This document shows, piece by piece, positions 19,370 to 26,111 of a DNA stretch of 64,000 bases. The stretch's first letter is position 1. Every line of letters begins with the position of its first letter. Source of the DNA: a virus; the UHGV virus genome UHGV-1558314; one strand, 5' to 3'. The position numbers were made by a program, and so were the translations under genes. Under the pieces are notes generated by a model. That model searched no databases. It was given only the letters and a program-made list of their open reading frames with translations, and was not told where the DNA came from.

Positions 19370-20662
19370 CTACAACAATGACGGCACTCGTTGAGTTTCA
19401 AGTGGGTCGCTGACATTGATGCCTGTGTATGCAACAAGTCGTTGTATTGGGCCAAGTACGAGTTTTTCGAACATGAGTCGTTTGTTCATTGGCGGCACAT
19501 CTGGCATATACTTCGGTGTCGGCATTTCGCCTGGTGCAAAGCCAAATGCATCGCAATATTGACGAGAGCCAATTGGGATATTTGACAAATCTGACTTTGC
19601 TCTGTCAACAAAGTAGTAGAACACTCGACCGCCTTCAATCAATGGGTATCGTGTTTCCAATCCATGAGCTTTTACAAGACGATTATGCCAACAACATGCC
19701 CTGTACTGAGGCAGTACACCTTTTGCTAACTGCCATTCGCCATCATAGCTTAACACATAGTCATGATACTTGTTTGCATTGACATATGCACAAAGTTTTT
19801 CCAAGTCTTGCTCAGCTTCAAAGCGTTTCCATAATTTCTGTATGAGCTTTGGATATGTCGCAGAAGTCAATTCACCTCTGAACATTTTTTTGAATGCATA
19901 ATCAAGCATTTGCCTAACAAGCATTGATGAGCCTGTTTGAATAAGTTCGATGCCCTTACCTTGAATATGCTCAGTAGGGTCTTCAAATACTCGACCATCT
20001 ACATATATTTGAGACTTCAAATACTTTTTCTTTTGGGCAAATAATGCAGTATCAGAAATCGTCTCAAGGTCGAACATTAGCACAGAATCTCCATGACGCT
20101 TTGCAAGGTCATTTGCATATGACCTATTGAACAGTTCTTCCATACGATATTTGAATATCGCAAGAATCAAGTCATACCAATTTTTGCCTGTGTAACCAAT
20201 TGACTTAACTGTCGGCTCAAAGTGAATGTACAAAGAGTCTGTGTCAATATACAGCACTTTGTCTTCATAGGGTTCTTGCTTTGGCGACACAGACAAATCA
20301 AAATTGCCTTTCAATTTGGGGTCATTGCGCAGCTTTTCATGCAATTCATAATCACACCACCATTTATTGTTGAGATAGTCATTTGCTACTCGTTCGCCAA
20401 AGTGAATGAAGTTACGCCCTTCTGCAGTAATTGATTCTGCAACTGCCATATTGAAGAAGTGATAGAATCGATTACTTGTCGCACCATAAATACTGTTCCT
20501 TAGTGTTTTGAACGTCACCTGCAATGACGCATGTTTAAGCGACTCTTGTATTGCAAAGCCACGTAATTCAAATAGACGCTCAGTAGACAACTGACTCAAA
20601 TCGCCAGTTAAATCTACTCCATCTATTTCAATTTTTGACATGTCTATCTGAGCTTCTGCCAT
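19370..20662 (-). CDS. Family-B DNA polymerase, C-terminal fragment (motifs B and C)
   Basis: KTLRNSIYG (motif B, Kx3NSxYG) and YIDTDSLY (motif C, YxDTDS). ATG start, TAG stop. Confidence 0.8.
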   Translation of the reverse strand: MAEAQIDMSKIEIDGVDLTGDLSQLSTERLFELRGFAIQESLKHASLQVTFKTLRNSIYGATSNRFYHFFNMAVAESITAEGRNFIHFGERVANDYLNNKWWCDYELHEKLRNDPKLKGNFDLSVSPKQEPYEDKVLYIDTDSLYIHFEPTVKSIGYTGKNWYDLILAIFKYRMEELFNRSYANDLAKRHGDSVLMFDLETISDTALFAQKKKYLKSQIYVDGRVFEDPTEHIQGKGIELIQTGSSMLVRQMLDYAFKKMFRGELTSATYPKLIQKLWKRFEAEQDLEKLCAYVNANKYHDYVLSYDGEWQLAKGVLPQYRACCWHNRLVKAHGLETRYPLIEGGRVFYYFVDRAKSDLSNIPIGSRQYCDAFGFAPGEMPTPKYMPDVPPMNKRLMFEKLVLGPIQRLVAYTGINVSDPLETQRVPSLL

Positions 20663-20684
20663 AAGGTATCTTATTTAATTATTA

Positions 20685-20724
20685 TTGTACAACACACATT
20701 GCAATTTTGCAATATGTGTGTTAA
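20685..20724 (-). promoter_or_regulatory. Promoter box plus adjacent palindrome upstream of polymerase C-terminal gene
   Basis: ttgtacaaca at 20685-20694 followed by near-palindrome acacacattgcaa..ttgcaatatgtgtgtt. Confidence 0.35.
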
Positions 20725-20758
20725 ACAAAAATGCAGCAGCAGAACATCTGCTGCTGCA
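20724..20758 (-). terminator. Putative intrinsic terminator after 20802..21629
   Basis: Stem gcagcagcag/ctgctgctgc (20733-20757), loop aacat; A-run on plus strand upstream gives T-run on minus. Confidence 0.5.
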
Positions 20759-20801
20759 TCGGCAGGTATCTTCACATGTATTTGAGTTGATTACGATGTG
20801 A

Positions 20802-21629
20802 TTAGAATGGCAGGTCACCATCGTCACCTGCAGCGCCAAATTCAGCTGCAATGTCATATACCAACGTCATTGCGATTCGCAAATCGCGCTTCTTAGACTT
20901 CAGGCGCATGATATCATGACCAGAATTGTTTGTGATGACTGAACATTCAAACTCTTCATTGCCATCAATAAATGACAACATTGATTTGTGAATTGTGATT
21001 GGCGATAAATCAGATGGGTAATTTGCATCAATCACATATTCAAAGTTGTTGTTCTTGGCAATTAGTCCTCGTTCAGTCGTACGAATCTCAATGCCGGGCA
21101 ATTCCTTATCACCAGTATTCAATGAGCCATACGATGACATGATGCCAAAGTGATTTGACGTCAAATCGAGTTTTCTTAGATTTGTTGTGCTGTCAAACAA
21201 CATTGACATATCATTGTCAGACAGCTCAAAGTAGCCAAGTGATGGCATTGAACAAACCTGATTGATTTTGAGCTGATTGTTTGAGATTACAATGAGCTCT
21301 GCAATTGTATCTGTGCCAATTTGTTTGACATAGATTTCAATCATTGCAGATGAGCCAAATGCAGCAAGTACTCGATTGTTAAACTGTGTGCCGTTGTAAA
21401 TGAGCGCCTTGACTGTGACATCTTTGAGCGTCGACTCATAATGCTCACAAATATCAAGAACATTGAGCGTCTGTGATTTTACAAAGCTGCTGTTGCCAGC
21501 ATCAGTTCTGATTCGCTGGTCATTAAGTGAAAAGCTAAGCTTGCCATCGCACTTTAATGATGATGCAAACAATGCTCGCAGCATATCAATGTTTGCATTG
21601 CGTAACGTAATTTTGTTCAAAGTTTCCAT
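20802..21629 (-). CDS. Hypothetical protein (275 aa); weak resemblance to a sliding-clamp-like processivity factor
   Basis: Sits between polymerase fragments; acidic C-terminus ending DDGDLPF. Function not supported by motifs. Confidence 0.25.
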   Translation of the reverse strand: METLNKITLRNANIDMLRALFASSLKCDGKLSFSLNDQRIRTDAGNSSFVKSQTLNVLDICEHYESTLKDVTVKALIYNGTQFNNRVLAAFGSSAMIEIYVKQIGTDTIAELIVISNNQLKINQVCSMPSLGYFELSDNDMSMLFDSTTNLRKLDLTSNHFGIMSSYGSLNTGDKELPGIEIRTTERGLIAKNNNFEYVIDANYPSDLSPITIHKSMLSFIDGNEEFECSVITNNSGHDIMRLKSKKRDLRIAMTLVYDIAAEFGAAGDDGDLPF

Positions 21630-21697
21630 CTTGTATCTATGTTGTTGATTTTCAATTTAATATATTGAACAACATTTGTTGACATTTTGCAACATTG

Positions 21698-22072
21698 TCA
21701 TCGATTGTCGCCTGACCCATGCAGTACGCCTCGTAATTTTCGAGACTGTAGTTTCTGAATGTTAAGCTGACAAATGTCAGTTAAGCTGTAGCCCAAATCA
21801 TGTGCAAGAGTTGCAGCATACCACATGACATCGCTAAGCTCTTTTGCGATTTCCTTGCGAATGTCTTCATTGTCAAAATCACCATTCTTGTCTCGAATGA
21901 CTTTTTTGACTTTGTCTGCAACTTCGCCTGCTTCACCCGTCAAGCCAAGCGTTGGATAGACAATTGCAGCTGATTTAGGATACACTGCGCTATCAAGTGC
22001 AGCAGTCTGATATTCATCAATGGTTGAAATACAAGTGTGGTCAATTACACCATGTTCATCTCGTTTAAGCAT
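21698..22072 (-). CDS. MazG-like nucleoside triphosphate pyrophosphohydrolase
   Basis: All-alpha NTP-PPase signature (LTGEAGEVADKVKK ... ELSDVMWYAATLAHDLG). Confidence 0.55.
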   Translation of the reverse strand: MLKRDEHGVIDHTCISTIDEYQTAALDSAVYPKSAAIVYPTLGLTGEAGEVADKVKKVIRDKNGDFDNEDIRKEIAKELSDVMWYAATLAHDLGYSLTDICQLNIQKLQSRKLRGVLHGSGDNR

Positions 22073-22073
22073 A

Positions 22074-22565
22074 TCATTTACGTTTTTGTTTGACTCTTAA
22101 TCGTTTTTGCATAAATGCTCTTGTAGCTTCACCAAAAGCCATCTCGTCTCGTTCGCCACCACAAAGCTTTGCAAGCTTATTGAATGTGTCTTGGTCAATC
22201 ATTGTGTACGTTGAGTTGTTGACCACATGCAATGCAAACTGAATCAGCGGTGCGCCTGGCTGCAAGCAGAACGGCTCTTTGCCCGCATTGTACACTGCAA
22301 GATGAATCTCGCCATGATAGTCTGAATCTACAAACTCACTTGTTTTGATGATAAGATGATTTCGTGAAATGCCCGACTTATTGTAGGCAATCAATGCATG
22401 ACAGGCAGGCACAAGTGCTTTGATGCCAGATGGAATTGCAATGCCCTCACCAGGTTGCAGCATTGTTTGCACAAAATCATTGGGTATGCAAAAGTCCCAT
22501 GCGCCAGATTCTGCTGTTGACTTAAAAGGACTTTCTACATTTCTGCATTTTGCAAAGAATAACAT
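22074..22565 (-). CDS. dUTPase / dCTP deaminase family protein
   Basis: VDSDYHGEIHLAVYNAG resembles trimeric dUTPase motif GxIDxDYRGE. Confidence 0.5.
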   Translation of the reverse strand: MLFFAKCRNVESPFKSTAESGAWDFCIPNDFVQTMLQPGEGIAIPSGIKALVPACHALIAYNKSGISRNHLIIKTSEFVDSDYHGEIHLAVYNAGKEPFCLQPGAPLIQFALHVVNNSTYTMIDQDTFNKLAKLCGGERDEMAFGEATRAFMQKRLRVKQKRK

Positions 22566-22588
22566 ATTAAGTATGTGTTTGTATGTTG

Positions 22589-22933
22589 TTAGTACATTTC
22601 TCGTTTAACAAGAGCTTTGCGTTTTGAGCGTAACCCTGCCCTATTACGTAATTCTACTGACCAATCACGAATCATTTGCCATGCAATCCCACCACGTTGA
22701 ATACCACCGTGCTTGAACATTTCATTGCAAATACCTTGAATAAACACCGCATCAGACTTTGTCAATGCGTCAACAATTTGACCATGGTTGTCTTCTGTCT
22801 TGACATCATTACAGAGCTTAAGTTCATCTACTGAAAGTTCGCCAAGCAGCTCATAGTAGTATATGAGAGCTTTGCGTGCGGCAATTGCTTTTCTTGAATT
22901 GCCAGAATAAGACAAAGTTACATGTTTGCTCAT
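22589..22933 (-). CDS. Hypothetical protein (114 aa)
   Basis: Track start at 22939 is TTG; ATG at 22931-22933 used. Confidence 0.35.
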   Translation of the reverse strand: MSKHVTLSYSGNSRKAIAARKALIYYYELLGELSVDELKLCNDVKTEDNHGQIVDALTKSDAVFIQGICNEMFKHGGIQRGGIAWQMIRDWSVELRNRAGLRSKRKALVKREMY

Positions 22934-22949
22934 ATTCAATTATTGTTAT

Positions 22950-22972
22950 TATATGTTGATATTGTACAACAT
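22950..22972 (-). promoter_or_regulatory. Recurrent promoter box (coding-strand ATGTTGTACAATATCAACATATAAT)
   Basis: Plus-strand tatatgttgatattgtacaacat; TATAAT-like element ~10 nt downstream of the box on the minus strand. Confidence 0.45.
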
Positions 22973-22975
22973 GTG

Positions 22976-24175
22976 TTAACTTTTTGCATGACCACAATCA
23001 TACACCGCAACATAGCCAGCATCAATCATCTCTTGCTCATCTTGTCCGCAATCTTCAATATGTTCTTTTGTCTTCAAATGACACCAGTGTTTGCGAATTG
23101 TTGACTTGTCATCTGACAATTGCGGATTGAGTGCGAAGTCAGTTGAGTCTACTGGTTCACCTGCAAGATGCTTTCTAATGACATCAATGACAACATCAAA
23201 TGGCATCCAGTCAAACACTGTAATGCAAGTGTAGCTGTGTTTGATAGCAAGTTGTGTTTTGTTAAAATGGTTGTCATATGGTCGTTGCCAATTATGATTT
23301 GCATTGAACACAATATTTGCAAAACTACGCGTGCTATTATGAGAAATAGTTGGGTTAAGTTCAATTAGCAACTTATGCGATTTGCAAACAATGTCATATG
23401 ACAATGACGTGTTCTCAAATGTAAATTCTTGCTCAAAATGCACATCAAGGTTATCAAATAGCATGTTAAGCCTTGTGCATATTTTTGTATTGTGTGCAGA
23501 CTTTGCTTTAGATTTTGCTCTGCATTGAGGCAATTGGCATGGCCACACTACACCATGACGTGACAATGTTGTTGCACGAATTGCGTCAAGATTCGTTGAT
23601 GGATTGCCATATCGAGCTATTCGAGTTTGCCTTGCTTTGTCTATATTGCCTGGGCCTGCATTGCCCCATCGCTGCAACTTTGTTTGTCGAGCTTGTTCAT
23701 GATTGCTGTAATATGGGTCTCCATATCGTTCAAGCTTTGTTTGCTTTAACTTACTCATGTCGCCAAGCCCATTGCCATACTTAGCACGCTTTGTTTCTAT
23801 GCCTTTCTTTAGATTGCCTCGTTTGTTGCCATATTTTGCAATGTTGTGTGCATTACGTTTTTCAATGTCACCAAACCCATTGCCATATCGTGCAAATTTT
23901 GTTGCTTGCGCTTTTTCAAAATTGACTGCTAATGTGCCATAACGAGCATACTTAGTTGCTTTGCCCTTATCAACGACTTCTTTACGATGCAATGCAGCTT
24001 CAACACCATATTTTCGCAAATTTGTAATTTTTGCATTGTATCGTCGTCTAATTGTTGCATGAGTGTTGTTACGAGACCCTGTTCTGACATATTCAGTTGC
24101 AGCAAGTTCAGCATCACGTAACTGCTCAAGTTCTGCAATTCGTTGTTCAAGTTCAGCGCCTACAAGTGGTTTCAT
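22976..24175 (-). CDS. Homing-endonuclease-like protein with ~18-aa basic tandem repeats (intact paralog)
   Basis: About eight repeats of K-x-x-A-T-K-x-A-R-Y-G-N type; N-terminal coiled coil; C-terminal YDIVCKSHKLLIELNP resembles a PD-(D/E)XK-like core with N in place of K. Located between the two DNA polymerase fragments. Confidence 0.45.
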   Translation of the reverse strand: MKPLVGAELEQRIAELEQLRDAELAATEYVRTGSRNNTHATIRRRYNAKITNLRKYGVEAALHRKEVVDKGKATKYARYGTLAVNFEKAQATKFARYGNGFGDIEKRNAHNIAKYGNKRGNLKKGIETKRAKYGNGLGDMSKLKQTKLERYGDPYYSNHEQARQTKLQRWGNAGPGNIDKARQTRIARYGNPSTNLDAIRATTLSRHGVVWPCQLPQCRAKSKAKSAHNTKICTRLNMLFDNLDVHFEQEFTFENTSLSYDIVCKSHKLLIELNPTISHNSTRSFANIVFNANHNWQRPYDNHFNKTQLAIKHSYTCITVFDWMPFDVVIDVIRKHLAGEPVDSTDFALNPQLSDDKSTIRKHWCHLKTKEHIEDCGQDEQEMIDAGYVAVYDCGHAKS

Positions 24176-24183
24176 GTGTTGTT

Positions 24184-25689
24184 TTACAATTTGATTGCGC
24201 CTCTACGAGCAAGCTCTTCTTCAATCAATCGAACATGATTGTTAGAATACCAGAACTGAATTTTTTTGTGATAATTACGCTTGTCTCCAAGTTCTTCCTG
24301 TACTGCTTTGTACATGCTTTTTTCATGATTGTCATACAAGCAGTCATTAACGGACACAAAGTACTCTGGCAATGACTTGTAATGCGCAATTTCATCAGGA
24401 TTTGTCAGACGTCTGATAAAGTTATCCGGTGATACATTGCATGATTTCATTGAACTTGGATAGAGTGAATTTGCATCAACACAAACAACTTTATGAGCCC
24501 AATGGTTAAATGGTTGCTTCACAAAGCCACCTTCAAATGCATGCACAACATTTTCTGGACCGCCTTGAGCACATACGACTTTGCCACCATATTTGTTGTA
24601 CAAATATGTCATCATGACGCCCTCAGATTGCTTAACTGGGCCTTGACAGTGGTTCATATCAATGTTTGACACATTTGACAAGCCCATCACATTTGATATC
24701 AAGTCAGTTTTTGCAGCAATCATCGCATTGACCATCGTATCGACAGCATTATATGCAATGAACGTGCATGGATGATACAAATACAGCTCTTTAAGTGTAC
24801 AATCATAGGGCAGCTTACCTACACCGAACATACGATGTGCAATATAGTCAAGTCGCAATGACTCTTTTTGCCACACTGAATAGTCGTATGTGTCCATGAG
24901 CTGCATGTAGTCATCAATGTACTTGTGATATGGCATACCATTGCCCCAGACAGTTCTGCCAACTGGAGATGCCAATGCTAAATCAATATTGTGCATTGCG
25001 CATCGATTTTTGACATAGATGTTGTCGAAGCCATTGATGTTCCAGCCTGTCAATGCAGGAATGTTTTTGAAGAGCTTAGTCACCCAAAAATGCAACAATT
25101 CATGCTCATTTGCATGTTGAAAGATTTTGACAGTTGGATGTTCTTTCAAATACGCAGCAAAGCAATGTTGACCCATGTACTCTTGAATGATGCCATTGAC
25201 AAACTCAAATGCATCATCCAGTGTTGGGTTTTGTTTGCCACAGCTTTTGCGCAAATCATCATCATTCAACAAGTCAACAGTAGTCTGAATGACACAATTG
25301 CATTGTTCATCGCATGTACTTATTGCATTAATGGGCATTTCAGCTTTGTCAGGCTTTGGAAAGCCATTGCCAATTTCAGTCTCAATATCGTAAAAGTATA
25401 ACTTTGGTCTACGATAAGCAAACAATTCAACTTTGTCAGCTTCAGGCAATTCAAATAAGAATTGCAGCAAGTCAAATTGATTGAATCGTTTTGCTGTGAC
25501 TCGAGTCACAGGCAATTTGCGCCAATCTTGAATATCTGCATATTGCGGCTCTACATGGTCTGATATTTGCCATACTGGAAATTGATATGGCTGTTCACAG
25601 ACTGGGTATGTTTTGATGTCAATGCCACCTTGCTCATTAACGTATGAAACTTCAATGCCATGTGACAAATATGCTACGTCGACAATCAT
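24184..25689 (-). CDS. Family-B DNA polymerase, N-terminal fragment (3'-5' exonuclease motifs and motif A)
   Basis: Exo I FYDIETE, Exo II NINGFDNIY, Exo III YNAVD, motif A VDANSLYPS. Track start 25725 is TTG; first ATG 25687-25689 used. Confidence 0.8.
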   Translation of the reverse strand: MIVDVAYLSHGIEVSYVNEQGGIDIKTYPVCEQPYQFPVWQISDHVEPQYADIQDWRKLPVTRVTAKRFNQFDLLQFLFELPEADKVELFAYRRPKLYFYDIETEIGNGFPKPDKAEMPINAISTCDEQCNCVIQTTVDLLNDDDLRKSCGKQNPTLDDAFEFVNGIIQEYMGQHCFAAYLKEHPTVKIFQHANEHELLHFWVTKLFKNIPALTGWNINGFDNIYVKNRCAMHNIDLALASPVGRTVWGNGMPYHKYIDDYMQLMDTYDYSVWQKESLRLDYIAHRMFGVGKLPYDCTLKELYLYHPCTFIAYNAVDTMVNAMIAAKTDLISNVMGLSNVSNIDMNHCQGPVKQSEGVMMTYLYNKYGGKVVCAQGGPENVVHAFEGGFVKQPFNHWAHKVVCVDANSLYPSSMKSCNVSPDNFIRRLTNPDEIAHYKSLPEYFVSVNDCLYDNHEKSMYKAVQEELGDKRNYHKKIQFWYSNNHVRLIEEELARRGAIKL

Positions 25690-25700
25690 ATTATTATCTT

Positions 25701-26111
25701 TTAGAATAGAGATATTGTACAACAATTTGATTCAGGTTGCCATTCTACAATATGCGCATCAAAGTGTTTGTTAAGCCAATGTGCAAGTATGTGTCTATGA
25801 CAAAATGCAGATGGTCTGCACCAACATAACAATACAATGTCTCGTTCGCCTGCAAAAATCTTTATGCGATGCAGCATCAAACTTATCTGTGACAATGCAG
25901 CGTCAAGTTTTGCTGCATATTGCTCTGCATATTGTGCATTGTCAAGCAAGCCTGCTTTATGCAAACGAACAAGTGACATGTAATCAGGCATGACGTCAGT
26001 CCATGTAAAATCTGCTATGAAGCCCTTAGGCTTTGTTGCAGACACTTGAACAAGAAATGCGTTATCAGGCAGATGCCTGCATGCATAATATGAAGTCAAG
26101 ATTCTTGTCAT
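25701..26111 (-). CDS. Small protein with C-x-x-x-x-C-H-R motif (DUF488-like?)
   Basis: LLCWCRPSAFCHRHILAHWL; family assignment from memory only. Confidence 0.3.
   Translation of the reverse strand: MTRILTSYYACRHLPDNAFLVQVSATKPKGFIADFTWTDVMPDYMSLVRLHKAGLLDNAQYAEQYAAKLDAALSQISLMLHRIKIFAGERDIVLLCWCRPSAFCHRHILAHWLNKHFDAHIVEWQPESNCCTISLF
25711..25726 (-). promoter_or_regulatory. Promoter box upstream of polymerase N-terminal gene
   Basis: attgtacaaca at 25714-25724, embedded in the 3' end of the upstream gene. Confidence 0.4.

What the first reader, a model, noticed from the sequence alone, without database searches (positions are those of the whole stretch)
19370..25689. Family-B DNA polymerase split between motif A and motif B by a 3.5-kb gene cassette
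The exonuclease motifs and motif A are in 24184..25689; motifs B and C are in 19370..20662. Between them lie five genes (HE-like protein, hypothetical, dUTPase-like, MazG-like, clamp-like candidate), with a terminator at 20733-20757 and a promoter box at 20685-20694 ahead of the C-terminal fragment. The two halves are therefore separate transcripts and polypeptides, not an intein. The HE-like gene directly after the N-terminal fragment fits a mobile-element origin, but the cassette also carries housekeeping-type genes.
Basis: seen in the sequence. Interest (0 to 1): 0.75.

Follow-up and report, generated by a model that had tools for sequence, protein, structure and literature searches.

The report
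Two-piece phage DNA polymerase, clamp between
A large phage encodes its replicative DNA polymerase as two separate proteins with a sliding-clamp gene and nucleotide-cleaning genes between them, an old arrangement shared by a whole phage group and already known in kind, with selfish endonuclease genes moving in and out beside it.

Summary
On the minus strand, 24184-25689 encodes the exonuclease motifs and motif A of a family-B polymerase. 19370-20662 encodes motifs B, C and KKxY. Five genes (3,521 bp) lie between them.

The 3.5-kb interval is not one mobile cassette that split the gene. The break lies at the tip of the fingers domain, after a conserved RRG. [quoted passage not shown] T4-like phages 44RR, 25 and 133 are split at the same structural site, and their halves co-purify and are active.

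The 275-aa gene has a sliding-clamp fold, and its homologue lies between the halves in every relative examined. Only the HE-like gene is recent. Strains 92-96% identical lack it, or carry paralogues between the clamp and the C-terminal half, and all remain split. It has a Vsr/I-Bth0305I-like nuclease domain.

No intein or intron was found. An 11-mer promoter-like motif precedes both halves, and a strong terminator follows the clamp gene.

Verdict: a new member of a known kind, of modest interest.

The parts
25714..25724 (-). Promoter-like 11-mer TGTTGTACAAT, 25 nt upstream of the PolN ATG
   Evidence: Exact match, one of 8 exact copies that are all on the coding strand.
24184..25689 (-). PolB N-terminal subunit (PolN, 501 aa): N-terminal domain, 3'-5' exonuclease (Exo I-III), palm motif A and the first fingers helix. 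It ends ...EEELARRGAIKL.
   Evidence: Pfam and PHROG hits. Alignment to T4 gp43 residues 61-486. Motif coordinates. phrog_2062 is a family made up of N-halves only.
22950..24180 (.). 1,231-bp insertion relative to HEG-less strains: the HE399 gene plus a 3' promoter-like motif. It sits between the PolN stop codon and the leader of the next gene.
   Evidence: blastn of L012, L013 and L014 against the window jumps from 24181 to 22949.
22976..24175 (-). Free-standing homing-endonuclease-like gene (HE399). It has an N-terminal coil, tandem K..T...RYG helical repeats (DUF7487) and a C-terminal Vsr/I-Bth0305I-like nuclease domain.
   Evidence: Pfam DUF7487 and phrog_3339. AF2 model with pLDDT 85. Foldseek match to 3r3p_B with probability 0.99 and TMt 0.66, and to Vsr. 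Present or absent among strains. Paralogues in other genomic contexts.
22961..22971 (-). Promoter-like TGTTGTACAAT carried at the 3' end of the HE399 insertion, upstream of the 116-aa gene
22589..22939 (-). Hypothetical 116-aa gene (relatives aa from the ATG at 22933). No family found.
   Evidence: 97% identical in L005.
22074..22565 (-). dUTPase
   Evidence: Pfam PF00692, E = 3.5e-10. A dUTPase is also found between the halves in PAU (gp106) and in L017.
21698..22072 (-). MazG-like nucleoside triphosphate pyrophosphohydrolase
   Evidence: Pfam PF03819 and phrog_229, E = 1.4e-35.
21664..21674 (-). One-mismatch copy of the promoter-like motif (TGTTGTTCAAT) upstream of the clamp gene
20802..21629 (-). 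Protein with a sliding-clamp (PCNA/gp45-like, two-domain) fold, 275 aa, with an acidic C-terminal tail ...DDGDLPF
   Evidence: The AF2 model shows a repeated beta-alpha-beta-beta-beta pattern. All of the top 50 PDB hits are PCNA or beta clamps, E about 2e-6, probability 1.0. In BFVD the best hits are uncharacterized proteins of PTm1, pT24 and a 271-aa entry (the length of PAU gp109), followed by viral PCNAs. Homologues lie between the halves in PTm1, MA9V-1/-2, PAU, L006 and L017.
20730..20760 (-). Intrinsic-terminator-like hairpin (14 bp, 7 G-C pairs) followed by a T run, directly after the clamp gene
20684..20712 (-). Promoter-like site TTGCAA-17-TACAAT containing TGTTGTACAAT, 22 nt upstream of the PolC ATG. 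In other strains an endonuclease gene is inserted just upstream, between 20727 and 20725.
   Evidence: The L005 insertion of 1,214 bp is mapped.
19370..20662 (-). PolB C-terminal subunit (PolC, 430 aa): second fingers helix with motif B, palm motif C, KKKY and thumb
   Evidence: Pfam and PHROG hits. Residue 21 aligns to RB69 residue 529. Motifs. phrog_1918 is a family made up of C-halves only.

Best explanation
This is the replicative family-B DNA polymerase of a jumbo myovirus related to PAU, PTm1 and MA9V, encoded as two subunits.

The break lies in the loop at the tip of the fingers domain. Each subunit keeps one of the two long antiparallel fingers helices. PolN carries the exonuclease domain, motif A and helix 1. 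PolC carries helix 2 with motif B, motif C and the thumb. The two subunits are inferred to reassemble non-covalently into a complete enzyme, as was shown for T4-like gp43A/gp43B and for an engineered Pfu split.

The split is ancestral to this phage group and was not caused by the neighbouring endonuclease gene. A sliding-clamp-fold gene is conserved between the halves, and in part of the group so is a dUTPase.

Expression is inferred to run from copies of one promoter-like motif ahead of PolN, the clamp gene and PolC, with a terminator after the clamp gene.

Free-standing Vsr-fold homing-endonuclease genes, each bringing a 3' promoter copy, have repeatedly invaded the two intergenic junctions: PolN/next gene and clamp/PolC. 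They are polymorphic among strains.
For: Shown:
- The motifs are complementary and the fragments do not overlap.
- The split point is the same across the group: '...RRG' plus 3-7 residues in the window, MA9V, PTm1 and L006 (9 in PAU). The unsplit P0018 and P0024 read through it.
- Synteny is conserved: PolN ... clamp - PolC in PAU, PTm1, MA9V-1/-2, L006 and L017.
- Of the 150 best clusters at 50% identity, 63 demonstrably end at the split site. About 40 more are N-half-sized, and 37 are unsplit.
- PHROGs already holds half-only families.
- Asfd_1, a 44RR-like phage, is split at the equivalent position.
- Strains 92-96% identical lack HE399, or carry HE320 or HE382 between the clamp and PolC, and all remain split.
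- HE399 relatives sit next to a terminase gene or a helicase gene elsewhere. The nuclease fold matches I-Bth0305I and Vsr.
- PolN of the window and of L014 differ at 69 synonymous and 29 non-synonymous codons, which indicates purifying selection.
- The clamp fold is supported.
- The promoter motif and terminator are supported.

From the literature:
- The 43A and 43B products of phage 25 co-purify and have polymerase activity (PMC2988022).
- Pfu polymerase split at the finger tip is fully active when reconstituted from separate fragments (PMC3061061).
Against: - No direct evidence here shows that PolN and PolC associate or are active. No multimer model could be run.
- Transcript boundaries are inferred from sequence motifs only.
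- The clamp model has medium confidence (pLDDT 67, TM about 0.3-0.4, shallow alignment).
- My neighbour-joining tree of N-halves scatters unsplit forms among split ones (23 parsimony changes). A single ancestral split for all split sequences is therefore not established. It holds best for the block containing the window, MA9V, L006, PAU and PTm1.
- According to the literature, this phage group may also carry another polymerase (a split minimal Pol III alpha; PMC7824862). It is therefore not proven that this PolB is the only replicase.
Confidence: 0.8

Rival explanations
1. A mobile cassette, led by the HE-like gene, recently inserted into an intact polB and split it.
For: An endonuclease gene directly abuts the PolN stop codon. 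Endonuclease genes are known to split phage genes, for example mobE in nrdA (PMC2988022).
Against: HEG-less strains (L012, L013, L014) are split at the same codon and keep the other four genes. The split and the clamp gene between the halves are conserved in relatives whose polymerase is only 28-36% identical. The insertion is only 1,231 bp long and lies entirely in an intergenic spacer.
Confidence: 0.04
2. The fragments are decaying remnants (a pseudogene), and another polymerase replicates the genome.
For: Group 2.2 jumbo phages are reported to carry an additional split minimal Pol III alpha (PMC7824862). The rest of this genome was not available.
Against: All six catalytic motifs and KKxY are intact in both halves. 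Both halves are conserved across more than 100 diverged clusters and end at the same site. Synonymous changes outnumber non-synonymous ones, 69 to 29. Both halves have promoter-like motifs.
Confidence: 0.03
3. The halves are joined after synthesis into one chain, by a split intein, by RNA trans-splicing or by translational bypass.
For: PTm1 has a true intein-type 'fractured' junction further downstream in its C-terminal half: gp239 hits Intein_splicing and gp240 is a Vsr endonuclease. Phage 25 has a group I intron in 43B (own knowledge of Petrov et al. 2010, not read here).
Against: PolN and PolC have no intein hit and no extra residues (931 aa against 903). Rfam finds no intron in the window. 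Five expressed-looking genes and a terminator lie between the halves.
Confidence: 0.02
4. The finger-tip split is maintained because it is useful. It loosens the fingers so that the enzyme accepts modified nucleotides in a phage with hypermodified DNA. The clamp gene is kept between the halves for co-expression of a three-part holoenzyme.
For: The engineered Pfu finger-tip split, combined with Q484R, broadened nucleotide-analogue use (PMC3061061). PAU DNA is reported to be extensively modified (PMC7824862). The window carries two ThyA-like genes, a dCMP deaminase, dUTPase, MazG and two GT47-like glycosyltransferases. The window and related strains differ most in the two fingers helices.
Against: The evidence is purely correlative. 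T4 uses an unsplit gp43 with hydroxymethyl-dCTP. Unsplit relatives (P0018, P0024) sit next to the split block in the tree. The split may simply be neutral and hard to reverse.
Confidence: 0.1

Closest known systems
Bicistronic (finger-tip-split) gp43 of T4-like phages 44RR, 25, 31, 65 and Acinetobacter phage 133 (Petrov et al. 2006/2010; reviewed in PMC2988022 and PMC3061061)
   Same: The break lies between motif A and motif B, at the tip of the fingers. The Asfd_1 43B start corresponds to about PolC residue 6. There are two cistrons and no intein. Subunit sizes are similar: 492-506 and 391-392 aa, against 501 and 430 aa here. Phage 133 has about 2.9 kb and eight ORFs between its halves. Phage 25 has a free-standing endonuclease gene at the junction that probably arrived after the split.
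   Different: The polymerase lineage is different: identity to T4-like gp43 is only about 25%. The genes between the halves are different. Here they include a conserved clamp-fold gene, whereas in Asfd_1, PS2 and phage 133 the clamp-loader genes 44 and 62 lie outside the split polymerase gene. The endonuclease is of Vsr/EDxHD type rather than seg (GIY-YIG). In this group the split form is the common one rather than a rare variant.
Orthologous split polymerases of Sphingomonas phage PAU (gp105/gp110), Tenacibaculum phage PTm1 (gp236/gp239-241) and Chryseobacterium phages MA9V-1/-2
   Same: The split point (after RRG) is the same. The order PolN ... clamp homologue - PolC - p429 homologue is the same. 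PAU also has a dUTPase directly after PolN.
   Different: Identity is 28-36% for PolN and 24-34% for PolC. MA9V and L006 have an acidic protein of about 360 aa in place of the hyp/dUTPase/MazG genes. PTm1 has a second, intein-type break with a Vsr endonuclease. MA9V-2 has a TnpB gene between the clamp and PolC. None of the records or papers I could read discusses the split or names the clamp.
I-Bth0305I / Vsr-like (EDxHD) homing endonucleases of 'fractured genes' (Dassa et al. 2009; PDB 3R3P)
   Same: The nuclease-domain fold matches. The gene is free-standing and lies between the two parts of a split essential phage gene. The family is multi-copy and mobile.
   Different: No split intein flanks it here. 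The long K..T...RYG repeat array (DUF7487) is a different DNA-binding module. Cleavage activity and target are untested.
Split archaeal PolB (Methanothermobacter PolB1) and the engineered split Pfu polymerase
   Same: PolB functions as two non-covalently associated polypeptides. The Pfu split is at the finger tip and the enzyme is fully active.
   Different: The Methanothermobacter split lies in the palm, about 83 residues further downstream, and its genes are 85 kb apart.

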